NCBI GenBank assembly: GCA_964594455.1
Contig: CAZQLY010000006.1
Span: 8,629 to 72,628, forward strand
Origin: an uncultured Gammaproteobacteria bacterium
GTDB lineage: Bacteria; Patescibacteriota; Patescibacteriia; JAHIZJ01
Direction: 5' to 3'
Length of the DNA stretch: 64,000 bases
In this document: one piece after another, positions 341 through 63,506 of the stretch
Position numbering within the stretch: position 1 is the stretch's first letter
How the letters are laid out: the number at the start of each line of letters is the position of its first letter
Notes under the pieces: model-generated
Database searches by the model: none
What the model saw: the letters and a program-made list of their open reading frames with translations, nothing else
Told to the model about the DNA's origin: nothing
Position numbers and translations under genes: made by a program

Positions 341-586
341 TTGGGCTCAAAGATGAGGGTTCAAACGCCGGGTCAGGCCAAAAGCCGGGCCAGGAAGCTG
401 GCTTGCCGACGCCAGAAGCAGGCGCGTTATCAGGAGGAAGCACGCCGTCGCGGGATTCCTGTGGGACAAGTTCCCTTCGTTCTCTTCCAAGAGATGCAGG
501 AAGGCCAGAGGCAGAGAGCGGCTGAAGTTCAGCGCAGGCTCGAAGAGATGTCGCGGCGCAGAAGGAGTCCTTGGGACCCGTGGTAG
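341..586 (+). CDS. Hypothetical small Arg/Glu/Gln-rich basic protein (81 aa) in a GC-rich island, TTG start
   Basis: GC-rich segment (about 300-600) in an AT-rich genome. Perfect SD AAGGAGG at 328-334, 6 nt before TTG at 341 (ATG at 353 is an alternative). Hairpin terminator immediately downstream. Other frames in this GC-rich patch are also open, so the frame choice rests on the SD. Confidence 0.45.
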   Translation: MGSKMRVQTPGQAKSRARKLACRRQKQARYQEEARRRGIPVGQVPFVLFQEMQEGQRQRAAEVQRRLEEMSRRRRSPWDPW

Positions 587-20516: not shown

Positions 20517-20526
20517 AAGAGAAGTA

Positions 20527-20555: not shown

Positions 20556-20674
20556 GCCTTGTTTTCGCGGTCTCATGATGTGCGAGGACAAGCCCTTTCC
20601 TAAAGTGCAGTAAGCCTTAAATTCTCGAAATACGGGAGTAAGAGGCAGGCTGTCAAAGAGGAGGCTAAAAAGCC

Positions 20675-21298
20675 ATGAGTAGGAAGATTGACGTTGATCT
20701 GCGGGACGGTCTGGCTATCTACAGCCGCTTTGGTCAGGTTATCAGAGCGTTGGTGGACGGTCTCAAGAAGCGCGGCGGTACTCTCGACGATCTCTGGAAG
20801 GTTTTCAGGTCACAGGAAGCCCTGAACCAGATTCTGGACATTCTCAGATCGGTTGACATCAACCTGATCTCTCTGCGCATCAACTGGTCGGACGAGCCCT
20901 GGAATATCGTCACGCGGAGCGTGCTGAACAACGCGGTGGCCGGCAACTTCGTTAATATCCCGGATGGCGAGTATCTAGAAGGTGTATCGGAACATCGGTA
21001 TATGCTGGTCGATCCACCGAAGCACCCGTTGCCGTTATCCGATCTCATTGATTGGTGTCAAATGAACAGTTATGTTCCGGCTACAGCGCTGGAGCTGTTC
21101 AATCTCGTTCTCCAGAATGAGACTATTGAAGAACGTTTTCGTGGCTGGAAGATCCTGGCGATTGTTGCCCATGGGACCGGCACAGATTACTACGGCAAGT
21201 GTCCCTATGTCTGCTTTGGCGATCGCTGGACCGTCGGTTATCATGATACCACGGCCAGGTCGACAACCCCGCCCAAGATCCTAGTTCGAGTCTCCTAG
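20675..21298 (+). CDS. Hypothetical protein (207 aa) in a GC-rich island, no recognisable domain
   Basis: GC about 55-58 % against an about 40 % background. SD GAGGAGG 10 nt upstream of ATG. Hairpin terminator downstream. Several shadow ORFs overlap. Confidence 0.55.
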   Translation: MSRKIDVDLRDGLAIYSRFGQVIRALVDGLKKRGGTLDDLWKVFRSQEALNQILDILRSVDINLISLRINWSDEPWNIVTRSVLNNAVAGNFVNIPDGEYLEGVSEHRYMLVDPPKHPLPLSDLIDWCQMNSYVPATALELFNLVLQNETIEERFRGWKILAIVAHGTGTDYYGKCPYVCFGDRWTVGYHDTTARSTTPPKILVRVS

Positions 21299-21317
21299 CG
21301 CCAATGCGCAACCTTCG

Positions 21318-21357
21318 GGCCGGTGAGTCACCTTGACTTGCCGGCCTCTTTTTTTAT
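21318..21357 (+). terminator. Hairpin (GGCCGG...CCGGCC) plus T9 terminator after the GC-rich ORF
   Basis: Stem 21318-21346, T-run 21348-21356. Overlaps the 3' end of the convergent sufU-like gene. Confidence 0.5.
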
Positions 21358-21699
21358 TGTATAGAGCGGAAGAGTGGCGCATTTATGACGGACAGGGGAA
21401 AGTTTTACGTTTAATTTTTTAACCAACTCCTCGCTGTTTATCTTTTTGGCCTGTTCCATGGTTTTGCCTTTTATCATTTCAGAAAATATAGAAGCCCCGG
21501 CCTGGGAGATAGCACAGCCCGCACCCTCCCAAGTGGCTTTCTTTATTCGTTTTTGCTTGTCCAGTGATACGTAAATAGTAAGCTGATCACCGCAGGAATA
21601 ATTAGCGCCCTTGAAGGTTTTCGAGGCGTTCTTAAGCCGGCCTTTATTCAAGGGCTGGCGGAAATGTTTCATTATTTCTAGATTGTAGGCGCTGACCAT
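21328..21699 (-). CDS. SufU/NifU-like Fe-S cluster scaffold protein
   Basis: CGD, GCAIS and HKCATLP cysteine motifs, 123 aa. Confidence 0.8.
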   Translation of the reverse strand: MVSAYNLEIMKHFRQPLNKGRLKNASKTFKGANYSCGDQLTIYVSLDKQKRIKKATWEGAGCAISQAGASIFSEMIKGKTMEQAKKINSEELVKKLNVKLSPVRHKCATLPLYTIKKEAGKSR

Positions 21700-48500: not shown

Positions 48501-49956
48501 TACCCGAAAAGTACCCAGAATAACCTGTTCCTGATTGTTGGCCGTAAATAGCTGAGTTGTCAGAGGTATTGATTACTGACAACTGGGTAGCATCGCCTGC
48601 TCCAGACCAACCGATTCTAACCTTGGTAGCGGCCGGAGTGACTGGGTTGATATTGTTTCCAGCCGTTCCTTCCCATAAGCCTGAACCTCCAGTAGATGAA
48701 ATTTGAACTCCATAGTAACCCGCTCCTTGGTCTACTTCGGTTAACGTAACGTTAGCACCGGCAACGAGCTTGTTATTGCCAATATCAAGAGGGTCATAGA
48801 GATAACCAGCATTAGAATCGCCAGCCTTAGTTTTTACCAGTACATCTGTGCCGCCGCCAGCGTCGTTTACCAGAACAACGTTGCCATTTGCATCTACCGA
48901 CAAGACCGTGCCTGAGCCAACACCGCCAGGTGAGGCGCTGGTCAGATTAGTGAACCTCACGCCGCTGGCATTAGCTACTCCGCTGTCAATTTCCAAGGCT
49001 TCATTGGGAGCATCAGTTCCTATTCCCACCTTATTATCATCAATTACTAATGTTTCAGTAGCACCATCACTGATAATCTTTACTCCATTGCCGCCGCCAG
49101 CATTGATCTGAAACCAGCCGTTTTCATTAGTGAGATAGGTTAGCTTTGAATTAGTAGTGTCTTCAAGTAAAATCCCTTGACCCACCTCCCCAGCAATATG
49201 TAGTTTCATTTGAGCCAGTTGTGTGCCAACGCCGACGTTTCTTTGAGTAGCAGTTTCATCTAGATAAACCACATCCGGATCAGGTGCGGCGTTAAGAATC
49301 CACAGACCCCCACCGGTAGCCCAAGAGGCAATGCAGGTAGAGTCATCTCCTGGATCGTTTAAACATAACCTAGTTGGGGTAGCCACGTTACCAAAGTATA
49401 CGTTTTCAGCTTGCCCGCCAGCACCGTCATCGTAGTTGATATAGAGAGGGGCTCCGGTCGATTTGATATCAGATCCCGCATCAGCAGTATTAGATTTCAT
49501 GATTAATATCTTTCCACCTGAATTATCAATAGTTATTTCCCCTGGATTGAGCCCAGCGTTAGTGACAACAACGCCGCTCTGCAAGGTTATCTTGCTGCCA
49601 GCGTTTTCGCCAGGGGACACATACAATACATCAGTGGCATGCTCAATATGTGGATTGGCAGTGCTATCGTCTAGGTCAGACCAGAACAAGCCTTTATCGC
49701 TTTGGCTGAAAAAAAGATTGCCTGTATTAACATATAGGTATTCGCCCCCGACCGTTAAACTGCCCTGCTTAGTTTGAGCAGAACCTGATACATTAATTGG
49801 TGCGGCTACATTACCGCCCGGTGGGGGGGAAACCGGTGAACTCCACTCGGCTTGGGCTATTTTTGCCCCGACTAGACCGAGTATACAAAATAAGGCCACT
49901 ACTAGCATTATTTTTAATGGCAGAATGGCCCGATCAGAGTGTTTAATTGTTTTCAT
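45547..49956 (-). CDS. Giant secreted surface protein (about 1470 aa) with tail-fibre-like Gly/Ser/Thr/Asn-rich repeats and a Cys-rich C-terminal domain
   Basis: Signal peptide MKTIKHS...GAKIAQA/EW. Repeated [D/N]VGIGTxxPxxKL[H/D]V-type motifs. Internal duplication. Start set at the internal Met before the signal peptide. Confidence 0.85.
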   Translation of the reverse strand: MKTIKHSDRAILPLKIMLVVALFCILGLVGAKIAQAEWSSPVSPPPGGNVAAPINVSGSAQTKQGSLTVGGEYLYVNTGNLFFSQSDKGLFWSDLDDSTANPHIEHATDVLYVSPGENAGSKITLQSGVVVTNAGLNPGEITIDNSGGKILIMKSNTADAGSDIKSTGAPLYINYDDGAGGQAENVYFGNVATPTRLCLNDPGDDSTCIASWATGGGLWILNAAPDPDVVYLDETATQRNVGVGTQLAQMKLHIAGEVGQGILLEDTTNSKLTYLTNENGWFQINAGGGNGVKIISDGATETLVIDDNKVGIGTDAPNEALEIDSGVANASGVRFTNLTSASPGGVGSGTVLSVDANGNVVLVNDAGGGTDVLVKTKAGDSNAGYLYDPLDIGNNKLVAGANVTLTEVDQGAGYYGVQISSTGGSGLWEGTAGNNINPVTPAATKVRIGWSGAGDATQLSVINTSDNSAIYGQQSGTGYSGYFSGKFAIVGSGNKNLRLEETSGGEYFDIDIDTSGDFNILNDASTNVFAIEDATGDVGINDGSPSYKLDVNGDVNVQTGFVYRHNGVAGASASPYCSGNDNVVSTITVNGGIVTDVTCEPDDGGGGGVDTKTVKVSGTDSADNFLLSKLTSSDASILVEQLGGAGTNQAVNLRINGTGFGLWEGTQGDNINPKTPNTTKVRIGWSGAGDNTQLAVKNNSINSAIYGEQSNWNGYAAYFSGLVGIRTYQQLGTDSGGNTYIGGNIKYNGSEYVFVNPSGAYNGGGGNPSRGTRIGMTSVITFLTGEGNFGGDTNPHLAERLRITNDGKVGIGTPSPQAKLAVYGNTDPSIILIQNSGSGSGSADGLEVSYHSNQAYLWNYELGNLYMGSGNTEAVRINNSGNVRIASLAGSSCTGDYTVDADANGYLICAEDRGGGSTGIDGSGTANYISKFIDSDTIGNSRIFDNGTQMGFGTNNPQTDFHFVGGQIRLVNNGHELKLGISDTDSRAHIDVAGNGWADSIWLGDVSNADNDVIVMGDLGVGESSPVVKLHAEGYIRSENGSYGVQLAQGGQGSGPQINFGSAGTPTSMLSLGAWGAINNLYTASRDFKIYSEAASTIMYIEEGTGDIGLDTTDPSAKLHINEPSSGVALKIGTNSTYELEFTGGNGANIYSGSSDLYILAGASKDVRIGANNANDQLVVHDNGNVEIENTLYIHDSDNQIYDSSGNLYIRTNSTAPIFMLTNSSERLGILRYGGVRIPRTTDSNWNDQPLLEVGLDSAHYSLGNTIESYNNSNDSARYNAVSGYKSGTSRGSAVYGELNGVTCSSGNCAAIYGSDGTGGTGEWAGYFDGPVNITGDITWNGDIYYGAQCPPQSVVVYTNSAQSNYAFLDRNNCYVGDDGVRKSVTLRAISLNIGGNDYALDDSSQHIQCRHACEAFGFEKDSGTCVSRQSGSGNHAWRVTSAPIYWQTSNTNYWCQECRCYVGDSPAF

Positions 49957-50035
49957 TGTATTGGTGATAAAAGTTAAAAGATGGTAACTAAAAATCACCC
50001 TTTATTATACTAAAAACTGTCTGTTAATACAAAAC

Positions 50036-50076: not shown

Positions 50077-53000
50077 CTATAATTCGCAGCAAATGATATC
50101 GGTCAATCTATCGCGCTCTTCGTTTCCTGCACTGTCCCAGAATTTAACACCGCAGACATAATCGCCCTCACCACACATAACAGTGCTACCATCAGGTTGG
50201 TTAGGCATGCCGAATTCTTGAGCAGTACCATGATAGTTATTTGGTGCTCCGAAGTCCCCGTTTGAAAATACGGCATAGTTTTTATAATCTCCAAGAGCGC
50301 TCGGGTTATAGCCATAGACTCCATAAGCATATCCATCGTCCTCGCCAGTAACTTGGCCCCAAACCCCGGCCTTAGTGCCAGAGGAAGAAACCGTAGCATT
50401 GGAGTATCCAAACACACCTGCTGAACGGCCAGTACTACCGGTAGCGTTGCGTCCAAATCCAACTAAACCATAACTACCTCGGTTAGTAGTGCCAGTAGTG
50501 CCTCCAACGCCAATAATCCCGATACCAGTACTCGAGCTGGCAGTGTTGATTGCCCTGATAACACTATAGTCATCCCAAGCTGGATCTGCGTGTGCTTCTG
50601 TAACTGTGGCCTCAAAAAGCCCAGCATAGTCTCCATCGGCCTGACTTACGTATAAAGATGGATCAGATGTGCTGGTGTAAATAGCTAAGCCGGTTCCTGA
50701 TAAGCCGTTGCCGCTAGTTCCATTATTGATAACTAACTTAGCGGCCGGAGCGCCGTTGGAAATGCCAACATTTACTCTTTCATCAAATTTGACTATTGTA
50801 TTCATGATTGAAAACTGAGGATCATCCCAAGAAATAGTGTTACCTGTGGTTGTAGAGCCACTCTTTTCGTAAAAATGTATACCTTGTCCCGGAGCGTCTG
50901 GAGTTGAGCCACCGTACTGAAAGGCGATCATTCTGGTTCCGAATGAAGCGTGAGTATTGGTATAGACATAGTTTGAACCATTCCAGGCGCAATTATGACA
51001 GAGAGTTTCATGAGCATGAGCCGATACACCCGCTTGCCAGTTGGCTCCATAGCTAGACATGAATATTCGATTGCCTTGACTGTAGATTGGGCCGTTGACG
51101 TGAAGTTTAACTGTTGGATTAGTTTGTCCAATACCCACCTCTGAACCATCATCCGTTATTTGAGAGTCACTTAAGGTGGTGGCAGCGGTAAACTTAGCTA
51201 CCCGATTTGCAGTACCAGATCCACCGAGACCCGATGGCCAGCTACCGCGGCAGTCGCCGCTGATACAAAGCTGAGTAGCGTTAGCATTGCCGCTGACATC
51301 CAACTGGTATGAAGGACTACTGTCATTTATTCCTACAAAGCCAGGATCGCCGGCCGCATTGCCTAATATTGTAATTCTGGTTGTCTCGCCAGTCTGTAAA
51401 ACTAGATTATCACTGCCATAGCTTGAGAACCCACCATTGGAAATTATTTTTTTATTGAAGTAAAATTTGGCTCGATCAGTGTAAAGATGAGCATAACTGG
51501 CATTGTCAGACCCAATATCCAAATAGCCACTAGTTGTAGATACTCTAACCATACCACCACTACCGCCGTGATTGATGTTACCTCTCAAAGCTCCATCGTT
51601 GAAAATATTTAACACTGTAGTACTGTCACGAATGAAATCTACCGTACCATTACCAGCACCGTCGCCCCATTTAAAGTTTGGATTATCGCCGGCCACTATA
51701 TCCATATCCCCGCCGATAACTTCACCGATATACATATCTGTTCCGCCGACATAGAGCAAATCACCAACACCATCAAGCCGCATATCACCGACTACATGTA
51801 ATTTGTGGGCAGGGTTATTTGTACCAACGCCAACATCCCAGCCCGTGTTGTTGGGATAAAGATCAGTACCGTTCAGCGTCCAGTAACTGCTGCCACCAGC
51901 TGCTGCCCAGGACAAGGTACCGCTGCCATTATTTGTTAGTACGGTACTAGCGCCTCCTTGGGCGGCCGGCCAGTCATAGACCACGTTTTTTATTCTTTGA
52001 ATATCACCGTCTGAGGCTACTTGGAATTTGTCACCTGATCCTACAGTTAATAATGCGGCTGGACTGGTGTCGCCGATGCCAATATTACCACTGCCTGTGA
52101 TAGTCATTCTATAATTATCATTGGTTCCAAATTGGATACTGCCGTTTTCATAATTCCAAACGTAGGTGGATACGCCGTCTTGAGATATTTCAAAACCATC
52201 ACCCACACCTGTCCCACTCAAAGCATCTTGTAGCAAAATAACACTAGCATCATCATCATAGAGATTTAATTTTCCTTTTGGATCAGATGTGCCAATACCA
52301 ACATCACCGCCTGACTCTATCACCATACGTTCTTGAGTTGTGCTGCCGTCGGGACTAGTGTAGAACATCAGTTTGGTAGGGTAGTCGTTGGGACTCCAAT
52401 CAGCCGTGGCTCGGCCCTTTATTTGAGCACCGATCGAACCATCGCCACCATCATCTCCAGAGAAATATAAGGCTCCTAGATCCTCGCCATCTACAATTAC
52501 TGAATCATTACGTCTCAGTGCTTGATAGCCGCCACCGGTTTCTCCAACGTCCAGCTTATTTTGAGGATCGGGTATTCCGATACCGACATTGCCACCTGAA
52601 CCAATCATCATTCTTTGTTGGACGGTGCTGCCATCGGGTGCTGTCCAAAAAGTAAGTTGAGTTGGACTATCATTCAGACTCCAATCAGCTGTTGAGATAG
52701 CTTTGATTTCAGCGCCGATAGCGTTAGTTGATCCATCATCGCCGTTAAAGTAAATTGCACCCAAATCCTCACCAGTGGTGATAAAATTATCATTTCTTCT
52801 CAGAGCCATATATCCACCAATGCTTTCTCCAACCTCAAAACGGTGAGTCATGTCCGTGACACCGACACCGACCTTAAAATTATCGTTATAGATGTTTGAA
52901 TTGCCGATCTCGTAAGCTCCATTTGTGAATCTTGTCACATAAGCAGTAGTACCAGTACTAACTATGCCACCGCCAGAGCCGCCGTCATCAGATTCACAAG

Positions 53001-54849
53001 ATACATTGGTTACAATACCACCGTTGACTGTAAGATTACTGACAACTATATCATCTCCATTACAAAAGGGTGAGCCAGAAGTGCCCGCGGATCCAGCATG
53101 ACTATAGACAAAACCGGTTTGAACATTTATATCTCCATTGACGTCAAGCTTGTAGGAAGGGGAACTGTCATTGATACCGACATCACCAGTTGAATCCTCG
53201 ATGGCTAAAGTATTGGTACCGGCATCATTAAGAATGTTAAGATCTCCCGAGGTATCTATATTGATATCAAAATATTCTCCGCCTGAGGTTTCTTCCAGCC
53301 TGAGGTTATTGTTTCCAGATCCCACAATGGAGAATTTACCGGAGAAGTATCCAGAATAGCCGGCGCCTGCTTGTTCAGCATAGATGGCCTTATCAGTAGC
53401 CACGGTACCGGTATTCTTGACTGACAACTGAGTATTGTCTCCGATGTCGTTGCGGCCAATCGCTACTTTGTCCGTCGCTTCGTTGACGGGGTTAATGGTA
53501 TTGGCCGTGACGCCCATTTCCCAGAGTCCTGAGCCACCAGAAGTTGTTAAATCCAGGGTTTGGTTTTCACCAATGCCACCGACTAAAGCGATATTTACAC
53601 TTGAATCACTGGAGGTTAATTGGTTCATCAAGTAATCGGCTGACAATTCGCCTGCAGTTACTTTGACGTATTCATCAGTGCCGCCGCCACCTCCATCATC
53701 TGTACCGCAAACTATGTTTCCGTTAGCGTCGGTATCCAAGGTATTAGCACCGGTACAACCTGCAAGCTGAGTAAACCTTAAGCCGCTTGTATTATTCACG
53801 CCACTGTCGATTTCTAATTTTACGTTTGGCGTATCGGTCCCTATTCCAACCTTGTCGTCATTGACTATTAAAGTTTTAGTTGCGCCATCACTTATTATTT
53901 TTATACCGTTGCCGCCGCCAGCGTTTATTTGAAACCAACCATTCTCATTTGTGAGATAGGTGGGTTTTGTGTTAGTCAAATCTTCTAGGAGAATGCCCTG
54001 ACCAACTTGCGCAGCAATATGTAATTTCATCTGGGCTAGCTGTGTGCCAATTCCGACATTTCTTGTTGAAGTTGTTTCATCCAGATAAACGACATCCGGA
54101 TCTGGTGTGGCGTCGAGAGTCCATAGGCCACCACTGCCTCCAGTTTGGTCCCAACCGGTAATACATTCCGCACCAGTGCCATCATCATTGAAACAGACCC
54201 TGACAACGTGGGTATCCGATCCGATTATGAGATCTTGCCCACCCGGATTGGAATCAAGGGTCTTATCGGCTGCTAAATAAATGTCTTCACCAGCGCCACT
54301 GAAATAATTTACGAACAAAGGTGAACCAGTTGATTTAACATCTCCCCCAGCAGCGCCGTCTTCCAGGGCTAGGGTTAAGGTTCGTCCTTCAACCGAGTTT
54401 ATTATCTCCAGACTGCCCTGATTAGCATCGGCCCTGGTAATTGTTACATCGCCTTGGTTCTCAATAGCTGTACCAGCATCACCAGCCGATATATATACTG
54501 TTCCTAAGGAATAATTAATATGAGGATTGGAAGGACTATTATCTTCGTTGGCCCAGAAAACACCAGCATTGTCAGCCACAAAAAAAGCGTCTCCAGTAGT
54601 GAGCACTAAATATGCCCCATCGGCTTTTAGATATTCTCCGGCAACAGTTAAGCTTCCTTGTTTGGTCTGAGCTGACCCGGATACGTTGATTGGAGCGGAT
54701 GTGTTGCCACCGGGCGGGGGAGCTACTGGAGAGCTCCATTCAGCTTGAGCAATTTTTACTCCAACCAGTCCCAAAATACTAAAAAACGCCACTAGTAAAG
54801 CTAAGCGCGAAACGCGAGTGGCGTGTTTAAATTGACTTTTCATAGTCAT
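50077..54849 (-). CDS. Giant secreted surface protein (about 1590 aa), paralog of the 45547-49956 product
   Basis: Same signal peptide and post-cleavage motif (KIAQAEWSSPVxPPPGGN..APINVSGSAQTKQGSLTV). Long collinear blocks nearly identical to giant 1. Divergent Cys-containing C-terminus. Confidence 0.85.
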   Translation of the reverse strand: MTMKSQFKHATRVSRLALLVAFFSILGLVGVKIAQAEWSSPVAPPPGGNTSAPINVSGSAQTKQGSLTVAGEYLKADGAYLVLTTGDAFFVADNAGVFWANEDNSPSNPHINYSLGTVYISAGDAGTAIENQGDVTITRADANQGSLEIINSVEGRTLTLALEDGAAGGDVKSTGSPLFVNYFSGAGEDIYLAADKTLDSNPGGQDLIIGSDTHVVRVCFNDDGTGAECITGWDQTGGSGGLWTLDATPDPDVVYLDETTSTRNVGIGTQLAQMKLHIAAQVGQGILLEDLTNTKPTYLTNENGWFQINAGGGNGIKIISDGATKTLIVNDDKVGIGTDTPNVKLEIDSGVNNTSGLRFTQLAGCTGANTLDTDANGNIVCGTDDGGGGGTDEYVKVTAGELSADYLMNQLTSSDSSVNIALVGGIGENQTLDLTTSGGSGLWEMGVTANTINPVNEATDKVAIGRNDIGDNTQLSVKNTGTVATDKAIYAEQAGAGYSGYFSGKFSIVGSGNNNLRLEETSGGEYFDINIDTSGDLNILNDAGTNTLAIEDSTGDVGINDSSPSYKLDVNGDINVQTGFVYSHAGSAGTSGSPFCNGDDIVVSNLTVNGGIVTNVSCESDDGGSGGGIVSTGTTAYVTRFTNGAYEIGNSNIYNDNFKVGVGVTDMTHRFEVGESIGGYMALRRNDNFITTGEDLGAIYFNGDDGSTNAIGAEIKAISTADWSLNDSPTQLTFWTAPDGSTVQQRMMIGSGGNVGIGIPDPQNKLDVGETGGGYQALRRNDSVIVDGEDLGALYFSGDDGGDGSIGAQIKGRATADWSPNDYPTKLMFYTSPDGSTTQERMVIESGGDVGIGTSDPKGKLNLYDDDASVILLQDALSGTGVGDGFEISQDGVSTYVWNYENGSIQFGTNDNYRMTITGSGNIGIGDTSPAALLTVGSGDKFQVASDGDIQRIKNVVYDWPAAQGGASTVLTNNGSGTLSWAAAGGSSYWTLNGTDLYPNNTGWDVGVGTNNPAHKLHVVGDMRLDGVGDLLYVGGTDMYIGEVIGGDMDIVAGDNPNFKWGDGAGNGTVDFIRDSTTVLNIFNDGALRGNINHGGSGGMVRVSTTSGYLDIGSDNASYAHLYTDRAKFYFNKKIISNGGFSSYGSDNLVLQTGETTRITILGNAAGDPGFVGINDSSPSYQLDVSGNANATQLCISGDCRGSWPSGLGGSGTANRVAKFTAATTLSDSQITDDGSEVGIGQTNPTVKLHVNGPIYSQGNRIFMSSYGANWQAGVSAHAHETLCHNCAWNGSNYVYTNTHASFGTRMIAFQYGGSTPDAPGQGIHFYEKSGSTTTGNTISWDDPQFSIMNTIVKFDERVNVGISNGAPAAKLVINNGTSGNGLSGTGLAIYTSTSDPSLYVSQADGDYAGLFEATVTEAHADPAWDDYSVIRAINTASSSTGIGIIGVGGTTGTTNRGSYGLVGFGRNATGSTGRSAGVFGYSNATVSSSGTKAGVWGQVTGEDDGYAYGVYGYNPSALGDYKNYAVFSNGDFGAPNNYHGTAQEFGMPNQPDGSTVMCGEGDYVCGVKFWDSAGNEERDRLTDIICCEL

Positions 54850-54910
54850 ATTATCCTTATTATTGATAGCTATTTTATATTTATTTAAGAAATATACTAT
54901 TATTATAGCA

Positions 54911-54943
54911 AAAAACAGGGCAAAAAGCAAGCCCTATTTTTTT
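54911..54943. terminator. Hairpin (AACAGGGC...GCCCTATT) with flanking A-run and T-run between the Mur-ligase gene and giant gene 2
   Basis: Sequence inspection only. Confidence 0.35.
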
Positions 54944-56260: not shown

Positions 56261-58747
56261 TTAATTAGCTGCTAGGTTGACGCCTGATTTAAATGATTCA
56301 GCGTAAACCAGGTATTCTTCGTAAAGATTGGTTCCCTCGCGGTTAAAGTAACGAACCAAAGGACTGCCACTGCTTCTGACTGATACAACTATTTCCTTTT
56401 TGCCGTTATATTGCAAGTCTGAAGTGGCCAGGTTGATTCCTCCACGGAAATCTGGCGCGAAAGCCATGAAGCCCACATGTTCCAGAATAACTGTTTGATC
56501 TGATTTCCGGCCAAATATTCTGATTTGAGGCCCGCCCGCGCTAGCTATACCTGTGATTATCTCATCTTTTCCGTCACCGTCAACATCTCCGCCAGCCAAC
56601 GTCATACCGCCCATGAAATCTTCATCGTAAGCCATCAAGCCCAGAATGACCGGCACAAAGACCCTGTTGCGAAAACCGAATATTCTGATATGCGGGCCGC
56701 CGTTACTAAGCGGTGCGGTAATTATTTCTCCCATGCCATTACCCTCCAGATCAGCTACGGCAACAGAAACCCCGCCACGGAAATTTTCATCATAAGCCAT
56801 GAAATTTTCAGTAGTAGGTTCAAAGCTTCCTGAGCGGTAACCAAATATTCTGATATTGGGGCCGCCATTGCTCATGGGTGCGGTAACAATTTCCGCTTTA
56901 CCACCGTCCACATCACCAACCGCTATATTTACTCCACCCCGGAAGCCGGTATCGTAGGCAAAAAAGTCTTTTTCAAAATCCCCGGACAGAGAAAAAACTC
57001 TGATCTGTGGACCGCCGCCTGGCCCGGGCGCGGTGACGACTTCGTCCTCTCCATCACCATCGACATCGCCAATAGCTACATTGACACCACCGCGGAATGT
57101 CTCAGCGTAGACAAAGAAACTAGCTATTTCAATTCCTCGGGTGGAGAAAACTCTAACGTGAGGTCCGCCTCCAGCATTGGCTCCAACCACAAAGCGTCTG
57201 GTATCAACTGTATATTCAGCCGTATTAATATCTTCAGGATTACCGGCCACGTCAATTGCGTAATAAGTAAGAGTGTTGGTTCCTTCGGGTGCGGTTAATG
57301 GTTCGGTATATTCGGCATATTCATCATCGCCCCAACGATAATAAATAGCATAAACATCAGACATGGCGTCGCTAGCCGAAAGGGTTATCGTGGGGGATTC
57401 AAGGTAATAATTATCCGAATCATCCGGTTCTGGGTCATGAGCAAGTGTTGTCGTGGGAGAGGCGACATCACCAATTACTAATTCAAAGGCGGCTTCTAGA
57501 TCAATCAAGCCGTAACCATAGGTCGTGTCATATCCGGACTTACCCAAATCCTTGGCGGTTGTTTCCAGAACAGATTGGATGTTATCAGAGGGAACCCCAG
57601 CTGCTAACAATAATGCAGCAGCACCGGAAACATGAGCTGTTGCCGAAGAGGTGCCTTGAGCCCAAATATCGTTAAACACCGAATAGTCCATTTCTCCGCC
57701 AGCCATGCCGTTATAAGTCTGCTGGACAATACCATCAATAATTTCATCATTGTTTTGATCAACATTAATATTTCCACCTGGTGCGACAACGCTTAAACCC
57801 TCGCCGTAATTAGAGTATGAGGGTTTGGTTTCATCGTACTGAGTGGCTCCAACACCTATGACAGCATCATAACTGGCTGGGGCTTGGAGCTTACTAGCGC
57901 TGGAATTACCGGCCGCGGCCACCAGAACAATGCCGTTGTCACTGGCTTCGTCCAGAGCCTCGCTATAGGCCTCATCAGCCGCATCAGTTGATCCAAAGCT
58001 CATATTAATTACATCAACGCCGTTCTCTATGGCGAATTCAATACCCTCGATTATAGCATCGGTGGTTCCAACTCCATTAGCGCCCAAGACCTTGATCGGC
58101 ATTATTGAGCTATTAAAAGCCATGCCAGCCATGGCTACACCATTATTAGTGGATTGGGCAATAGTGCCGGTCATATGCGTACCATGACCGTTATCATCGT
58201 TAGGGTGAGAGTCATTATTAACAAAATCATATCCGGAAACAAAATTGGTGCTGGCTAAATCTGGGGCTTGATTAAAATCTTTGTAATCTTCATACGCCAC
58301 CCCGGTGTCCATAACCGCTACCACAATGCTGTCGTCACCACCATACTTTGGTGTATCGGTGTCTTGATCCCAGGCTGATTCGACATTTATTTGATCAAAG
58401 TTCCACTGGTAAGAGTAAAGCGGGTCGTCTGGTGTGAAGCTGGATATTTTGTAGAGATAGTTTGGTTGAATAGACTCTACCAGTAAATTGTTTTTTAATC
58501 TGGTTAAGGCTGTAATAACTGATTCGTCTTGCAAGGACACTTTTACCAGGGTGTCAGATTGAGTAGTTAGGTATTTGATGCCACTGACTCCAAGTTGGTC
58601 TTCTAATTCATTACTAGCCTGAAAAGCCACCGAGGGATTTAGCTTGATGAGAACCTCATCAGCTGCATAGTTGGGCTCAATTGCCGAGGCTTTGGACGCC
58701 AGCATGAGGAACAGAAATAGGCTGAAAATTAGTGATGTTTTTTTCAT
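56261..58747 (-). CDS. Secreted S8 subtilisin-like serine peptidase with a C-terminal array of FG-GAP-like repeats
   Basis: Signal peptide. Catalytic triad contexts VAVMDTGV (Asp), HGTHMTGTIA (His), GTSSATAHVSGAAALL (Ser). At least eight repeats of the type RGGVN.A.GDVDGDG.DE.VT.P..GGGP.IR.F. Confidence 0.85.
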   Translation of the reverse strand: MKKTSLIFSLFLFLMLASKASAIEPNYAADEVLIKLNPSVAFQASNELEDQLGVSGIKYLTTQSDTLVKVSLQDESVITALTRLKNNLLVESIQPNYLYKISSFTPDDPLYSYQWNFDQINVESAWDQDTDTPKYGGDDSIVVAVMDTGVAYEDYKDFNQAPDLASTNFVSGYDFVNNDSHPNDDNGHGTHMTGTIAQSTNNGVAMAGMAFNSSIMPIKVLGANGVGTTDAIIEGIEFAIENGVDVINMSFGSTDAADEAYSEALDEASDNGIVLVAAAGNSSASKLQAPASYDAVIGVGATQYDETKPSYSNYGEGLSVVAPGGNINVDQNNDEIIDGIVQQTYNGMAGGEMDYSVFNDIWAQGTSSATAHVSGAAALLLAAGVPSDNIQSVLETTAKDLGKSGYDTTYGYGLIDLEAAFELVIGDVASPTTTLAHDPEPDDSDNYYLESPTITLSASDAMSDVYAIYYRWGDDEYAEYTEPLTAPEGTNTLTYYAIDVAGNPEDINTAEYTVDTRRFVVGANAGGGPHVRVFSTRGIEIASFFVYAETFRGGVNVAIGDVDGDGEDEVVTAPGPGGGPQIRVFSLSGDFEKDFFAYDTGFRGGVNIAVGDVDGGKAEIVTAPMSNGGPNIRIFGYRSGSFEPTTENFMAYDENFRGGVSVAVADLEGNGMGEIITAPLSNGGPHIRIFGFRNRVFVPVILGLMAYDEDFMGGMTLAGGDVDGDGKDEIITGIASAGGPQIRIFGRKSDQTVILEHVGFMAFAPDFRGGINLATSDLQYNGKKEIVVSVRSSGSPLVRYFNREGTNLYEEYLVYAESFKSGVNLAAN

Positions 58748-58808
58748 AGAATAAAATAAAAAGTTAATACTTTTTCATTGTACCATTCAGGGTTAGAAAG
58801 AGAAAATT

Positions 58809-58837
58809 TTGACAAGATCATAACTGCCTGATAAGGT
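58809..58837 (+). promoter_or_regulatory. Possible promoter TTGACA-17-TAAGGT at the AT-rich / GC-rich junction
   Basis: TTGACA 58809-58814. Weak -10. Confidence 0.25.
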
Positions 58838-58888
58838 GGTCGCAGCGTTCGCTATTTGACCTGGGAAGCCATATGAGGGAGGAAGACC

Positions 58889-59140
58889 ATGAAGCTTCAA
58901 TTGGGGCAAGTTGTGAATTTGTACAAGCTAAAGAAGCCGGGCTCAAATGAGATGGATATGTTTCCGCTTTCCCCGGGCATCCATGAGTTTGAGGAGGTAC
59001 CCAATCCGAGTGGGGGAACTGGTGGGATGCCCTGGCTGGTCCTAAAATCGGATCAGCTGTGCGGGATGGCCAAGGTGGCCCTTCTCAACAAGCCGGGCGT
59101 GACCGAGATTCAGGAGGAGGCACCGGCTGAGGGGAAGTAG
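58889..59140 (+). CDS. Hypothetical protein (83 aa) in a GC-rich island
   Basis: SD GAGGGAGG 6 nt before ATG. GC-rich. Terminator immediately after. Confidence 0.5.
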   Translation: MKLQLGQVVNLYKLKKPGSNEMDMFPLSPGIHEFEEVPNPSGGTGGMPWLVLKSDQLCGMAKVALLNKPGVTEIQEEAPAEGK

Positions 59141-59153
59141 GAGGCAGCATCGT

Positions 59154-59182
59154 GAGGCTGAAACAATCAGCCTCTTTTTTTT
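59154..59182 (+). terminator. Rho-independent terminator (GAGGCTG-loop-CAGCCTC plus T8)
   Basis: 7-bp stem then eight T. Confidence 0.65.
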
Positions 59183-59205
59183 ATTACTCCGAGGGTATTA
59201 TCCTT

Positions 59206-59294
59206 TTGTTGTCATGCCGAACTCCCGCCTTTGGCGAGGCTCGCCTATGACGGCGACTCGCCCAGCTCATCGGGCGAGGCGGGTGTTTCGGCAT
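59206..59294. repeat. GC-rich nested palindromic element, copy A
   Basis: Outer arms ATGCCGAACTCCCGCCT / AGGCGGGTGTTTCGGCAT. 32-nt core cgactcgcccagctcatcgggcgaggcgggtg matches copy C in reverse complement with 1 mismatch. Left flank TTGTTGTCAT shared with C. Confidence 0.6.
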
Positions 59295-59515
59295 CTCCAT
59301 TTACTCTCATTGACTATCGAGGTCCTGAAACAATACTGACTTTCGTCAGCACATGGTTCAGGGTGGCAGATGAGGTGGCGCTTGTTAATTTGACTGAGTT
59401 TGGGTCAAGGGGGTAAGCTTAAATTGTGCCATCAAGAAGCTTGTCTTTACTAAAAACGATGAGCCTGAGAATGGCAAAAAGGGGCTTCCTGAAAGGCCCC
59501 TTTTTGAATCAGATT

Positions 59516-60340
59516 TTATTTGAGGTATTGATCAACAAGTGCCTCGGTGGCTTCAATGTCAGGTACCCAGTAGTAAAGATTAGCGTCGAACTCGGGCGTG
59601 TAGATATAGTCTCCTTGACCGGGAATAAAGTCGTTATAAGTATTGGCTAGATCAAACCTGCCCCAACGTCTTGTATAAGCAGCCAGACCAAATTTAAAGG
59701 CGGCTAGTTTACTGTATTTCAGCCGAGTCTGAGAATGGTCTTGAAAAAAGCTGTAAAGATTTTTAGCTTCTGCCATGTTAGTTACTTTGTGACCTAATTC
59801 CAGGAAAATCTCTCTTTGATCTTGGGTCCGGGCAAAGTCGCCGCCAGCTCTATAGCGATCACGTACCACCTTCAAAGCGGCTTCACCATCCAGATGACCG
59901 TCTTCAGTATCAACGCCACCTAGCTCATCAACCAGGTCTTTGAAGCTTTCAAATGTGAATTCGACTGTGGCGTGGATTTTTATATCCAGAAAATCCTCCA
60001 CAGTTTCTTTGGTCAGATCAACGCTTCCCAGAATATCGTTTTCCCGCTCACCCAAGGCATAAGCATGAGTTATTTTCTGCATACCAAAATCTGCCATTTC
60101 AACCTTAGTGTCTCGAGGAATCGTTATTAAGCTTAGAGGTTGGTTGGGAGATTTCGGAACAGAAAACACCATGAGAACATCGGAACGAGCTTGTTCGGTC
60201 TCGCGCTGGTCGGATCCTATTATCAGTACGTTGTATTTGCTGGGAGCGGTGAAATAAAACCAAGCGAAAATAACAAGAATAGTTATTATTAACAGCAGGA
60301 CGATTAAAATGACTATTTTTGCTGGTTTGGGTATAAGCAC
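59516..60340 (-). CDS. LytR-CpsA-Psr (LCP) family cell-envelope phosphotransferase
   Basis: N-terminal TM helix. LCP core LIIGSDQRE...SDVLMV...ITIPRDT...LGGVD. Confidence 0.8.
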   Translation of the reverse strand: MLIPKPAKIVILIVLLLIITILVIFAWFYFTAPSKYNVLIIGSDQRETEQARSDVLMVFSVPKSPNQPLSLITIPRDTKVEMADFGMQKITHAYALGERENDILGSVDLTKETVEDFLDIKIHATVEFTFESFKDLVDELGGVDTEDGHLDGEAALKVVRDRYRAGGDFARTQDQREIFLELGHKVTNMAEAKNLYSFFQDHSQTRLKYSKLAAFKFGLAAYTRRWGRFDLANTYNDFIPGQGDYIYTPEFDANLYYWVPDIEATEALVDQYLK

Positions 60341-60343
60341 TCG

Positions 60344-60754
60344 TTAGTCTCCAATTACTGTAATAGTAATTTTACGTTTAGGTCTGGGGCCATCAAATTC
60401 TGCCAGAAAAATATTTTGCCAAGTACCAAGCTGAATTTGGCCTCTAGTGACAACATAGGACTGATTTTGCCCAATCACTCCTGACAGTAAATGAGCGGAC
60501 GCATTATTATCAATTCGGTCATGTTCAAAAGGACCGTCGTGTTCAATTGTCTTAAAAAGGTTAATAAAATCATTTCTCAAACCCGATTCATTTTCATTAC
60601 TTAAGATCGAAGCTGTAGAATGAGCGACCGAAACGTTGCACAAACCAATCCATATTTTTGCAACATTAACAACTTTGACTACTGAATCAGTAATATCAAT
60701 AAGTTCCCTTTGGGAGCTGGTAGACAACACTAAGTTTTTTTGGAAACTGGCCAT
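60344..60754 (-). CDS. YjbQ/UPF0047 family protein (secondary thiamine-phosphate synthase-like)
   Basis: LGTWQNIFLAEFDGPRPKRKITITVIGD C-terminal family signature, 136 aa. Confidence 0.75.
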   Translation of the reverse strand: MASFQKNLVLSTSSQRELIDITDSVVKVVNVAKIWIGLCNVSVAHSTASILSNENESGLRNDFINLFKTIEHDGPFEHDRIDNNASAHLLSGVIGQNQSYVVTRGQIQLGTWQNIFLAEFDGPRPKRKITITVIGD

Positions 60755-60856
60755 TTGATCCTTATAAGAATATCGTGATTATTATACTGGTTTGTCGATT
60801 GTTTGAGAAGTGTTTTGTTATTAGTAACCCGCCTCCGGTCAGCAACACCCCTCATC

Positions 60857-60881
60857 GTCATGCCGGACCGGGATCCGGCAT
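60857..60881. repeat. GC-rich palindromic element, copy B (the outer stem only)
   Basis: GTCATGCCGGA-CCGGGA-TCCGGCATC. Same GTCATGCCG(A/G)A terminus as copy A, inside a GC-rich patch at 60827-60895. Confidence 0.5.
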
Positions 60882-60976
60882 CTCAAATATCCGCCTAAGT
60901 TATTTACGGAGACTAAAGATTACGTAATATTGTTATGATTCATACTTTTAGTCCCTCTCAAATAATACCTCTAGGT

Positions 60977-61011
60977 AAATAAAAATGCGCCGATCTATAG
61001 AAGATCGGCGC
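60977..61011 (-). terminator. Rho-independent terminator of the GC-rich secreted-protein gene (10-bp stem GCGCCGATCT / AGATCGGCGC)
   Basis: Stem 60987-61011. Minus-strand T-run is the complement of AAATAAAAAT. Confidence 0.55.
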
Positions 61012-61027
61012 GGACCGTGGAGTATTG

Positions 61028-61543
61028 CTAGCAGCGCATGACGGTCCGGAGTACCCGGGTGACCTCGGCGACATCGTTGGCCGTCCTCGCGCTCGACTGG
61101 GCCGCATTGTTGACCGTGCAGCAATCGCGCGCATTCACCTGGATCCTTCCCGAGTTGTTGGCGACATCGTAGTTCTTGGCGATGAGGGCCGCGCTATTGA
61201 CCGCGTCGTCGATGTAGCAGCCGGAGCGCGCGTTCGCCTCGATCTTGACTTGGTGAACCGCGCACATGGTCTCGTGGGCGCAGGTCCGTCCGCTGATTTC
61301 TTCGTAATTGAGATTCTCGATCCTCGTCTGGGCCGCGTCGAAACGGAAATCGGCCGCCATGATCGGGCTGGCCTTGTTGGCGATCGCCTCGACGTTGCTG
61401 TTCTCCACGACTTGCTCGTTCAGCATCGCGATCTGCGGGGTCGTGGCGAGCTCCGCCTTCTCGACCGCCATCGCGCTTCCGGAAATGAACAGGATCGCCA
61501 GAACGGCGATCAGTGGAACAAGGGGCCAGAGTCTTCTCATCAT
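61028..61543 (-). CDS. Hypothetical secreted Cys-containing protein (171 aa) in a very GC-rich island
   Basis: GC about 62-65 %. Perfect SD AAGGAGG 4-7 nt before ATGATG. Signal peptide MMRRLWPLVPLIAVLAILFISGSAMA/VEK. Six Cys. Own terminator. The two plus-strand ORFs and one minus-strand ORF overlapping this island are taken as shadows. Confidence 0.6.
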   Translation of the reverse strand: MMRRLWPLVPLIAVLAILFISGSAMAVEKAELATTPQIAMLNEQVVENSNVEAIANKASPIMAADFRFDAAQTRIENLNYEEISGRTCAHETMCAVHQVKIEANARSGCYIDDAVNSAALIAKNYDVANNSGRIQVNARDCCTVNNAAQSSARTANDVAEVTRVLRTVMRC

Positions 61544-61608
61544 CGTTCCTCCTTGAGTTGGAGAGACAACCAGCGCATGTGTCTACCACCGTTGTACCAC
61601 GAAAGCAT

Positions 61609-61635
61609 AAAAAAACAGCCTTCGAAATTAGGCTA
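61609..61635 (-). terminator. Hairpin plus T7 terminator downstream of xseB
   Basis: AGCCT...AGGCT stem. The minus strand reads ...AGGCTGTTTTTTT. Confidence 0.4.
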
Positions 61636-61688
61636 ACATAAAAACATAAACATAAATTAGGCAAGTCCTAAACTTTTTTATGAGTATT

Positions 61689-63395: not shown

Positions 63396-63506
63396 TTGTT
63401 GTCATTCTGAACTTGATTCAGAATCCCATTACTATGCTACTCGGGACCCCGCATCACCCGCCTCGCCCGATGAGCCGGGCGAGTCGAGGCGGGAGTGCGG
63501 GATGAC
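63396..63506. repeat. GC-rich nested palindromic element, copy C
   Basis: Left TTGTTGTCAT + hairpin ATTCTGAA/TTCAGAAT. Long imperfect hairpin CCCGCATCACCCGCCTCG...CGAGGCGGGAGTGCGGGATGACAG. Core is the reverse complement of copy A. TGTCAT/ATGACA terminal inverted repeat. Confidence 0.6.

What the first reader, a model, noticed from the sequence alone, without database searches (positions are those of the whole stretch)
58809..61640. Four self-contained GC-rich cassettes in an AT-rich genome, each with AGGAGG SD plus hairpin terminator: recurrent foreign-gene insertion into intergenic spacers
Cassettes sit at 300-660, 20660-21357, 58840-59300 and 60977-61608, with a fifth, milder one at 30422-30745. 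Each has much higher GC than its flanks, a canonical strong Shine-Dalgarno, a single unknown ORF (81, 207, 83 and 171 aa; the last secreted) and a private terminator. All sit between intact housekeeping genes without disrupting them. The 171-aa gene has codon usage dominated by GCC, CGC, GTC and ATC, reminiscent of high-GC Actinobacteria. One hypothesis is transfer from a high-GC host bacterium to an epibiont. The alternative is a cassette-type mobile system.
Basis: partly seen in the sequence, partly recalled or inferred. Interest (0 to 1): 0.7.

Follow-up and report, generated by a model that had tools for sequence, protein, structure and literature searches.

The report
GC-rich accessory genes in CPR spacers
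Several small genes of unknown function, much richer in G+C than the rest of this ultra-small (Patescibacteria) bacterial genome, sit as stand-alone units between housekeeping genes; they are real lineage-specific accessory genes, one of which was recently swapped between related lineages by recombination, which is an ordinary kind of genome evolution with one unexplained compositional twist.

Summary
The five ORFs exist as described, and four have silent-site GC (GC3 .64-.85) that is 6-11 sd above 47 host genes (.40 ± .04). Independent assemblies reproduce the junctions, so this is not a chimera.

- The 83-aa gene (c3) is a conserved small protein at the same position in six related Patescibacteria lineages and absent from a seventh. 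It is under purifying selection, so it is old and not a fresh import.
- The 207-aa gene (c2) is also syntenic in a relative and as diverged as its neighbours.
- The 171-aa gene (c4) is a secreted, two-repeat orphan found in only three lineages, always upstream of LytR. It lies inside a ~1.1-kb tract whose synonymous divergence from the nearest relative is about 0.2, against saturation in all flanking genes. That indicates recent homologous-recombination exchange.
- No donor was identified. The only lead is one marginal relative in a 65%-GC contig.
- There are no attC-like or shared boundaries, no integron layout, and no phage, plasmid or RNA-family matches.

Unexplained: c3 stays GC3-rich (G-ending codons) in every lineage despite saturated divergence, so high GC is not proof of foreignness here.

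The parts
58809..58837 (+). Promoter-like TTGACA-17 nt-TAAGGT upstream of c3 (weak -10 box)
   Evidence: Read from the sequence. The consensus scan did not call it. Inference only.
58877..58882 (+). Shine-Dalgarno GGGAGG, 6 nt before the c3 ATG
   Evidence: Sequence.
58889..59140 (+). c3: an 83-aa conserved small protein of unknown function, with motif PxG-h-F-E-[VI]PNP...PWL[VI]L..D..G[ML][AS]K. GC3 is .69 and G-ending codons make up 51%.
   Evidence: ORF. Homologues at the same position, convergent with LytR, in L001-L005, L014 and L016; absent in L017. Alignment A3. pN .27 against pS .79 versus L001. No family, structure or viral match. AF2 model is low confidence and all-beta.
59154..59183 (+). 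Intrinsic terminator of c3: an 8-bp stem followed by T8
59211..59300 (.). E1: a GC-rich nested palindromic element. It is not part of the gene but contributes to the GC island. A related copy, E2, lies at 63424-63503 in inverted orientation.
   Evidence: Inverted repeat I1, 38 nt at 92%. DNA fold z -5.4 (E1) and -6.7 (E2). E2 is an 80-bp insertion relative to L001. The element is absent from all other loci fetched by then, L001-L011.
59516..60340 (-). LytR_cpsA_psr family gene, the core gene between the two cassettes. Codons 1-85 belong to the recent recombination tract.
   Evidence: Pfam. pS between the window and L001 is .197 for codons 1-85 and .782 for the rest (Fisher p 2e-14). Other genome pairs give about .8 in both parts.
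60080..61545 (.). Tract of recent shared ancestry with the L001 lineage: c4, the downstream spacer and the LytR 5' end. It is interrupted by UPF0047, which L001 lacks, and by the variable middle of c4.
   Evidence: Nucleotide identity is 87-97% in the tract against 57-80% outside it. pS is about .2 against .59-.91 in flanking genes.
60344..60754 (-). UPF0047 gene, itself present or absent among relatives
   Evidence: Pfam. Present in L002-L005 and absent in L001 and L017.
60977..61011 (-). Intrinsic terminator of c4 (GCGCCGATC...GATCGGCGC plus a T-run). The stem is conserved in L001 and L012.
61028..61543 (-). c4: a 171-aa predicted secreted protein. It has an N-terminal Sec-type signal peptide with an AMA cleavage motif, and its mature part carries two copies of a ~25-aa repeat ([KR]I[EQ][AV][NT]AR..C). 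GC by codon position is .56/.44/.85.
   Evidence: ORF. Composition. Homologues are P0001/P0010 (syntenic, 134/135 aa, one repeat lost) and P0005 (170 aa, directly upstream of LytR). Internal repeat, shuffle p .0015. The signal peptide is inferred from the sequence only.
61548..61553 (-). Shine-Dalgarno AGGAGG of c4, 4 nt before the first ATG and 7 nt before the second
   Evidence: Sequence.
341..586 (+). c1: an 81-aa Arg/Gln-rich ORF downstream of a tyrosine-recombinase gene end. GC by codon position is .66/.51/.66. No comparative evidence that it is coding.
   Evidence: It is a singleton cluster in the protein collection.
20675..21298 (+). c2: a 207-aa ORF between Dus and NifU, GC3 .64. A syntenic homologue, 46% identical by BLASTP, is present in Patescibacteria MAG STA_36.
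30510..30686 (+). c5: a 58-aa ORF between YchF and a methyltransferase. It shows no codon-position GC signal. Its N-terminus resembles an ORF downstream of YchF in STA_36.
   Evidence: The region folds with z -5.0, though it includes two hairpins.

Best explanation
The GC-rich 'cassettes' are lineage-specific accessory protein genes of a Patescibacteria (CPR) genome. Each is its own small transcription unit lodged in a spacer between core genes, and they were gained at different times.

c3 (83 aa) entered the LytR|S8 spacer in an ancestor of at least six sampled lineages. It has since been inherited vertically under purifying selection.

c4 (171 aa) is a younger gain in the XseB|LytR spacer. 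It encodes a fast-evolving secreted protein with two repeats. It spreads between related lineages without any mobility gene, by homologous recombination through the conserved flanking genes. The last such exchange with the L001 lineage carried c4, the downstream spacer and the first ~85 codons of LytR.

The extreme GC3 of c4, and its excess of GC-to-AT over AT-to-GC changes, fit an origin in a GC-rich genome with amelioration still under way.

What is shown: composition, synteny, presence and absence, the recombination tract, and the coding status of c2, c3 and c4. What is inferred: secretion of c4, its foreign GC-rich origin, uptake by transformation, the promoters, and all function.
For: Composition.

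Synteny and patchiness of c3 and c4 across related loci, with both sites empty in L017.

Purifying selection on c3: pN .27 against pS .79.

Recombination tract:
- c4 ends have pS .20 and LytR codons 1-85 have pS .197, against .78 for the rest of LytR and .59-.91 for XseA, XseB, S8, Mur and the 67-aa gene s67.
- Other genome pairs show no such dip.
- Nucleotide identity profile.

Polarised changes in c4: 27 GC-to-AT against 12 AT-to-GC.

The same signal peptide, Shine-Dalgarno site and terminator stem occur in three c4 alleles.

Independent assemblies span the junctions.

Literature: HGT islands are common in Patescibacteria, and most transfers are intra-phylum (PMC12455944).
Against: No donor was found. 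c4 has no credible homologue outside three CPR lineages among 1.84 billion representatives.

The three c4 alleles differ at about half of their synonymous sites (pS .49) yet all keep GC3 .79-.85. That is hard to reconcile with a single old import ameliorating under AT pressure.

c3, and probably c2, keep a GC3 excess through saturated divergence. High GC therefore cannot be a fossil of transfer for them.

Promoters are consensus-level guesses, and no expression data exist.
Confidence: 0.62

Rival explanations
1. The genes are native, not foreign. Their high silent-site GC is a gene-specific equilibrium. It would be held by selection (on the mRNA, or on the antisense read-through transcript) or by GC-biased gene conversion at a recombination hot spot. 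Composition would then say nothing about origin.
For: c3 GC3 exceeds that of the adjacent LytR in 6 of 6 lineages (.69/.41.58/.44.64/.50.65/.59.76/.57.83/.60). The excess is in G-ending codons each time, although pS is saturated.

c2 is .64 in the window and .61 in STA_36, while the host GC3 differs by .13.

There are no homologues in any GC-rich organism.
Against: c3 is absent from the L017 lineage, and c4 from L002, L003, L004/5 and L017. So they were gained or lost.

c4 shows an excess of GC-to-AT changes.

The LytR 5' end lies in the same recombination tract but is not GC-enriched: GC3 .40.

RNA folding z-scores for c3 and c4 are unremarkable, at -1.4 and -0.1.
Confidence: 0.25
2. The units are gene cassettes of an integron-like or other site-specific cassette system, moved by the tyrosine recombinase at the start of the window.
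For: The C-terminus of a tyrosine recombinase (Phage_integrase, E 1e-19) ends 90 nt before c1. Each unit holds a single ORF followed by a hairpin.
Against: The five units share no boundary sequence; the best pairwise matches are 8-14 nt at E >= .1, and the repeat search found none.

The hairpins are ordinary terminators with T-runs and differ in sequence.

The units are dispersed over 61 kb, one per spacer, and each has its own Shine-Dalgarno site and a promoter-like site.

The recombinase reads toward c1 instead of diverging from an array.

c2 and c3 are stably syntenic across deep divergence.
Confidence: 0.03
3. The islands are GC-rich structured non-coding RNAs, and the ORFs are artefacts of stop-codon-poor GC-rich sequence.
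For: In AT-rich genomes, GC-rich intergenic islands are often structured RNAs (established knowledge). The c5 region folds with z -5.0.
Against: No Rfam family was found at the gathering threshold. At E<1 there was one chance-level hit.

Folding z-scores are -0.1 (c4), -1.4 (c3) and 0.0 (c1).

There is strong codon-position GC periodicity.56/.44/.85 in c4, and the same in two other alleles.

Indels are in-frame, and pN is below pS for c3.
Confidence: 0.04
4. The GC-rich pieces are assembly chimeras or contamination from a GC-rich organism.
For: The composition jumps sharply at the island edges. The 171-aa product is not a called gene in the public record of this contig.
Against: Logan contigs are 100% identical across both c2 junctions and across S8-c3-LytR.

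The c4 locus, with the same neighbours, appears in GCA_016294925.1, GCA_016294905.1, JAEAMG010005004 and SRR2544004.
Confidence: 0.02

Closest known systems
Minimal mobile elements (accessory-gene islets between conserved flanking genes, exchanged by homologous recombination in naturally transformable bacteria, described in Neisseria; recalled from memory, not read here)
   Same: One spacer between two conserved genes (XseB|LytR) carries different contents in different lineages: nothing, UPF0047, c4, c4+UPF0047, or other genes. No transposase, integrase or repeats lie at the borders. A recombination tract runs from the insert into the flanking core gene.
   Different: The comparison here is between deeply diverged lineages (flanks 68-79% identical at the nucleotide level), not between strains of one species. 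Competence and uptake were not examined. The inserted genes are orphans of unknown function.
Phage 'morons' (promoter-gene-terminator units inserted between conserved genes, often of deviant GC)
   Same: Both are stand-alone units with their own Shine-Dalgarno site and terminator. Both have deviant composition and are inserted without disturbing neighbours.
   Different: The host here is a cellular chromosome of housekeeping genes, not a phage. No PHROG, phage-record or IMG/VR match was found.
Integron gene cassettes
   Same: Both are single small ORFs followed by a hairpin, and a tyrosine recombinase is nearby.
   Different: There is no shared attC-like end and no array. The units carry their own expression signals and sit at stable syntenic positions.
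Horizontally transferred genes and genomic islands reported in Patescibacteria (PMC12455944)
   Same: Both are accessory genes in streamlined CPR genomes, and the exchange is mostly within the phylum. The c4 exchange is between two Patescibacteria lineages.
   Different: These are single-gene islets well below the usual island size. They would escape donor-based detection because no donor is sampled.

Membership tests
Integron gene cassette | An attC recombination site (imperfect inverted repeat with conserved core sites) at the 3' end of every cassette | tested here: not met
   The 3' ends are dissimilar intrinsic terminators with T-runs. No repeat family links the units. An attC covariance model was not available.
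Integron gene cassette | An integron integrase (IntI, with its specific extra domain) next to the array and diverging from it, with attI and Pc | tested here: inconclusive
   Only the last 63-80 residues of a tyrosine recombinase are in the window (1-248). It reads toward c1. The IntI-specific region lies outside the window, and the upstream DNA could not be fetched.
Integron gene cassette | Promoterless cassettes in a tandem, co-oriented array | tested here: not met
   The units lie at 0.3, 20.7, 30.5, 58.9 and 61.0 kb, one per spacer, and c4 is on the opposite strand.
Horizontally acquired gene (compositional and phyletic criteria) | Composition and codon usage deviate from the host genome | tested here: met
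   GC3 z-scores are 5.7-10.8 for c1-c4. Mean log relative codon usage is negative only for the three cassette ORFs scored, c2, c3 and c4.
Horizontally acquired gene (compositional and phyletic criteria) | Patchy presence among close relatives, with an intact empty site | tested here: met
   c4 is absent in L002, L003, L004/5 and L017. c3 is absent in L017, where the spacers are 48 and 176 bp. This could not be tested for c1. For c2 and c5 only one relative was available, and both are present there.
Horizontally acquired gene (compositional and phyletic criteria) | Divergence incongruent with the flanking core genes | tested here: met
   Met for c4 only: pS .20 against .59-.91. c2 and c3 are as saturated as their flanks.
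Horizontally acquired gene (compositional and phyletic criteria) | An identifiable donor lineage, with the best hits outside the recipient clade | tested here: not met
   Outside the CPR alleles, the hits at E <= 0.001 are two long repetitive proteins that were not examined and one marginal hit, P0008 (E 4e-5; 30% identity over 124 aa including the signal peptide), in a 65%-GC contig of unknown taxon.
Phage moron | Located within a phage or prophage genome | tested here: not met
   The neighbours are XseAB, LytR, Mur ligase, Dus, NifU and YchF. There are no PHROG or viral-contig matches.
Phage moron | An autonomous promoter and terminator flank a single ORF | tested here: inconclusive
   The terminators of c3 and c4 were called. 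Their promoters are only partial consensus matches seen by eye.
Structured non-coding RNA | A match to a known family, or folding energy and covariation beyond chance | tested here: not met
   Rfam gave no hit. Folding z-scores are -0.1 to -2.2 for c1-c4. Codon periodicity indicates coding.
Diversity-generating retroelement target | A template-repeat and variable-repeat pair, and a reverse transcriptase nearby | tested here: not met
   Among the direct-repeat families listed (the 20 largest of at least 60 found), none involves c4. A reverse transcriptase was not specifically searched for.

The most novel reading that the evidence does not exclude
A set of small CPR-specific genes (c3, c2 and perhaps c4) keeps a gene-specific silent-site composition rich in G- or GC-ending codons. 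It persists through saturating divergence, in lineages whose own GC3 ranges from .41 to .60. That would point to an unrecognised local force and not to foreign origin. Candidates are selection on the mRNA or on the antisense read-through transcript of the surrounding operon, or strongly localised biased gene conversion at accessory-gene hot spots. In these streamlined genomes, compositional islands would then mark a functional class of genes, not recent transfer.
Probability: 0.2. Interest if true: 0.55.

Novelty: new member of a known kind. Interest (0 to 1): 0.3.

Why it matters
The case shows how streamlined epibiont-type genomes gain and shuffle single accessory genes without mobile-element machinery. 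Spacers between core genes serve as exchange sites. A secreted, fast-evolving protein is the cargo, which makes it a plausible host- or surface-interaction factor.

It is also a cautionary example. Deviant GC alone mislabels old, vertically inherited genes (c3, c2) as recent imports. The persistence of that GC excess is a small open question about what sets silent-site composition in CPR genomes.

Tried and rejected
Searches that found nothing:
- Pfam, PHROGs, NCBIfam and PADLOC scans of all five ORFs gave nothing usable.
- tblastn of c2, c3 and c4 against phage and plasmid records gave no match.
- IMG/VR scans for c2, c3 and c4 gave none.
- A profile of c3 against PDB sequences gave none.

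Structure prediction:
- The c4 model had pLDDT 37 and was useless.
- The c3 model had pLDDT 58 and was all-beta. Its Foldseek search of PDB gave only E>2 noise.

Hypotheses rejected:
- Non-coding RNA: no Rfam family reached its gathering score, one chance-level match appeared at E<1, and the fold z-scores for c1-c4 are unremarkable (-0.03 to -2.2).
- Shared cassette boundaries, and the palindromic elements as cassette ends. E1 and E2 are separate small insertions, and c1, c2 and c5 have none.
- Translational selection for GC3: the ORFs I took to be ribosomal-protein and RNA-polymerase genes, by position and size and without a domain search, have GC3 of .40 or less.

Could not be done:
- Fetching the window's own contig upstream of the recombinase failed, because the products are not on record.
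- The taxon of the 65%-GC contig carrying P0008 could not be established.


Full report
**1. The observation**

The window is 42.7% GC. In 300-nt windows, four islands exceed the mean by more than 2 sd: 251-700, 20626-21450, 58801-59400 and 60826-61650.

Across 47 other ORFs, GC3 is .40 ± .042. The cassette ORFs stand far outside that range:

| ORF | GC3 | z |
|---|---|---|
| c2 | .64 | 5.7 |
| c3 | .69 | 6.9 |
| c4 | .85 | 10.8 |
| c1 | .66 | 6.2 |
| c5 | .54 | 3.3 |

In c2, c3 and c4, GC1 and GC2 are close to host values and only GC3 is raised (c4: .56/.44/.85). That is the signature of real coding sequence shaped by a GC-favouring silent-site regime. c5 has no such periodicity, and c1 has little.

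Shine-Dalgarno sites and terminators are present. The terminators of c3 (59154-59174) and c4 (61011-60987) were called by the consensus scan. The top codons of c4 are GCG, GCC, ATC, GTC and AAC.

**2. Not an artefact**

Logan assemblies of run SRR7048224 contain contigs 100% identical to window 20283-22418 (Dus-c2-NifU) and to 58732-60352 (S8 start-c3-palindrome-LytR). The c4 locus, with the same neighbours, occurs in four other assemblies.

**3. The surroundings and related genomes**

The neighbours are ordinary core genes: S8 peptidase, LytR_cpsA_psr, UPF0047, exonuclease VII small and large subunits, Mur ligase, Dus, NifU and YchF. A LytR-based scan of genomes and metagenomes returned related Patescibacteria loci. 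Their gene order is:

| Locus | Gene order |
|---|---|
| L017 | XseA-XseB-LytR-S8-Mur, with 48-bp and 176-bp spacers: both sites empty |
| L003 | XseB-UPF0047-LytR-c3 |
| L002 (MAG STA_36) | XseB-UPF0047-LytR-[3.7-kb insert]-c3-S8 |
| L004/L005/L016 | XseB-[EamA-like]-UPF0047-[170 aa]-LytR-c3-Mur |
| L001/L013/L014/L015 | XseB-c4-LytR-c3-S8-Mur |
| L012 | c4-LytR |
| the window | XseB-c4-UPF0047-LytR-c3-S8-Mur |

So the two spacers flanking LytR are places where genes have come and gone repeatedly. c3 is an old gain and c4 a younger one.

**4. c3**

Six orthologues align over their whole length, with invariant G30, E36, P38-N39-P40, W49-L50, L52, D55, G59, K62, L65 and G70. Against L001, pN is .27 and pS .79. 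That means purifying selection, with silent sites as saturated as in the flanks.

c3 is therefore a real, clade-specific small protein inherited vertically. No family, solved structure, phage, plasmid or viral contig matches it. A single-sequence AF2 model is low confidence (pLDDT 58) and all-beta, and it gave no fold match.

**5. c4**

Only one homologue turned up in the 5.8-billion-cluster word search. A full HMMER pass over 1.84 billion representatives gave five matches at E <= 0.001:
- P0001 (with P0010 in the same cluster): the syntenic allele in the L001 group.
- P0005: a 170-aa allele on a 926-bp contig, directly upstream of a LytR gene.
- P0006 and P0007: long repetitive proteins, not examined further.
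- P0008: a marginal match (E 4e-5).

The three alleles share the Shine-Dalgarno site, an N-terminal hydrophobic signal sequence (MRKLWPLVPLIAV.AI... ending in AMA or ALA) and the terminator stem GCGCCGATC/GATCGGCGC. Secretion is inferred from the sequence only.

The mature part holds two copies of a ~25-aa repeat (shuffle p .0015 in the window allele.004 in P0005). The L001 allele has lost one copy, which explains the 'variable middle'. Alleles evolve fast: the window and P0005 are 40% identical, with pN .40 and pS .49.

**6. Recent exchange of c4**

Between the window and L001, every flanking gene is saturated at silent sites: XseA .78, XseB .91, S8 .78, Mur .86 and LytR overall .59. The conserved N- and C-terminal parts of c4 have pS of only .205 and .195.

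The low-divergence tract continues through the 260-nt downstream spacer (87-95% nucleotide identity) into LytR. Codons 1-85 have pS .197 and codons 86-274 have pS .782 (Fisher p 2e-14). In window-L002, window-L003, window-L004 and the L001 pairs, both parts of LytR are equally saturated, at about .8.

This is a recombination tract of about 1.1 kb, not counting UPF0047, with one breakpoint near window 60080 and the other near the c4 start. c4 therefore moved between these two lineages, or into both from a close third, long after they split. It did so by homologous recombination through the flanking core genes.

No transposase, integrase or repeat marks the borders. The LytR part of the tract has host-like GC3 (.40), so the exchange partner was another low-GC CPR genome.

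**7. Where did the GC come from?**

For c4, polarising window/L001 differences with the third allele gives 27 GC-to-AT against 12 AT-to-GC changes. That fits a sequence above its local equilibrium, meaning it was imported and is now ameliorating.

The marginal relative P0008 (BLASTP 30% identity over 124 aa, signal peptide included) lies in a 65%-GC contig. Its gene profile is .50/.44/.83, close to that of c4. This is a lead for a GC-rich source, but it is weak, and the contig's taxon could not be determined. Nothing points specifically to Actinobacteria.

**8. What does not fit**

c3 exceeds its neighbour LytR in GC3 in all six lineages, always through G-ending codons (G3 .33-.51 against .16-.24):

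| Lineage | c3 GC3 | LytR GC3 |
|---|---|---|
| window | .69 | .41 |
| L001 | .58 | .44 |
| L002 | .64 | .50 |
| L003 | .65 | .59 |
| L004 | .76 | .57 |
| L005 | .83 | .60 |

c2 has GC3 .64 in the window and .61 in STA_36, although host genes differ by .13 and c2 is as diverged as its flanks (pS .67). With silent sites saturated, a residual signal from one ancient import should have decayed. This follows from a simple two-state relaxation argument, which is my inference.

So for c3 and c2 the GC excess looks maintained. Likewise, the three c4 alleles keep GC3 .79-.85 while differing at half their silent sites.

I could not identify the force:
- RNA-fold z-scores are unremarkable.
- The ORFs I took to be ribosomal-protein and RNA-polymerase genes (by position and size, not checked with a domain search) have low GC3, which argues against translational selection.
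- The co-transferred LytR segment is not GC-enriched, which argues against regional biased gene conversion.

**9. Alternatives rejected**

- *Integron-like cassettes.* The five units share no boundary or attC-like sequence. They are dispersed and do not form an array. The recombinase fragment at 1-248 reads toward c1.
- *Palindromes as cassette ends.* E1 (59211-59300) and E2 (63424-63503) are copies of one GC-rich hairpin element. E2 is an 80-bp insertion relative to L001. They are independent small insertions, and c1, c2 and c5 have none.
- *Non-coding RNA.* No Rfam family reached its gathering score, only one chance-level match appeared at E<1, and the codon periodicity is clear.
- *Phage morons.* There is no viral similarity and no prophage context.

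**10. Comparison and verdict**

The closest known behaviour is that of accessory-gene islets between conserved flanking genes, exchanged by homologous recombination. These are the 'minimal mobile elements' of naturally transformable bacteria (recalled from memory). It also fits the reported prevalence of intra-phylum HGT in Patescibacteria (PMC12455944).

This is a new member of a known kind. It is partly wrong: c2 and c3 are old and vertically inherited, no donor is identified, and there is no cassette machinery. The function of all five proteins remains unknown.

My working model for c4 is a secreted or surface repeat protein under diversifying or relaxed selection (dN/dS about .5-.8). It is inferred and untested.

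Noticed in passing
window 59211-59300 and 63424-63503 (also 60857-60885): These are two copies of a GC-rich nested palindromic element (GTCATSCCGMACTCCCGCC...GGCGGGTGWTKCGG) in inverted orientation, with strong hairpins (DNA fold z -5.4 and -6.7). The copy at 63424-63503 is a clean 80-bp insertion relative to the L001 genome. They look like a small MITE/REP-like mobile hairpin. A third, shorter palindrome (GTCATGCCGGACCGGGATCCGGCATC) lies downstream of c4 and is conserved in L001.
   Followed up: partly
window 60344-60754: The UPF0047 gene is itself a presence/absence polymorphism. It is precisely missing in L001 and L017, although it lies in the middle of the recently exchanged tract. This implies a very recent deletion or insertion of exactly one gene.
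   Followed up: partly
window 1-248: The C-terminal end of a tyrosine recombinase (Phage_integrase family, E 1e-19) is cut by the window edge, 90 nt upstream of c1. Whether c1 is cargo of an integrated element could not be checked, because the upstream DNA could not be fetched.
   Followed up: partly
window 45547-49998 and 50077-54930: Two tandem giant paralogous ORFs (1483 and 1617 aa) share 300-nt segments that are 74-75% identical at a ~4.8-kb spacing. The first has no Pfam domain. They are probably large surface proteins.
   Followed up: no
window 13162-14573: Three tandem small paralogous genes lie here. The one I scanned matches the type IV secretion system pilin family (PF18895), and three genes with that domain occupy the syntenic position in MAG STA_36 (L010).
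   Followed up: no
window 28518-28694: A run of 6-nt-periodic repeats (ATTGGT/ATTGCT-like units, 8 overlapping 63-nt copies) lies inside the ORF 28347-29225 (- strand). It would encode a low-complexity Asn/Thr/Ala-rich segment.
   Followed up: no
window ~33.2-34.0 kb: Cumulative GC skew peaks here and then falls steadily. From 33.8 kb to 58.7 kb every ORF of 100 aa or more that I took as a gene is on the - strand. This may be a replication-related or gene-orientation switch point.
   Followed up: no
L002 6822-10550; L004 4108-6001: The same spacers carry other inserts in relatives. L002 has a 3.7-kb block with a 726-aa repeat protein (GC3 .67 against host .53). L004/L005 have an EamA-like membrane protein plus a 170-aa ORF. 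Accessory genes in this clade tend to be GC-richer than core genes.
   Followed up: partly
L021 5001-5381 (JGI 3300050118, 65% GC contig): P0008, a 126-aa secreted protein that JGI annotates as CwlO-like, is the only marginal c4 relative found outside the syntenic CPR locus. It lies between a 390-aa ORF without Pfam domains and a DUF5925/AAA ATPase, with an AddB-like nuclease one gene further upstream. Its codon-position GC profile is close to that of c4.
   Followed up: partly
window 61028-61543: The 171-aa product is not in the public protein collection, although its contig's other small ORFs (c1, c2, c3) are. The submitted annotation apparently missed it or called a different frame in this GC-rich stretch.
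   Followed up: no
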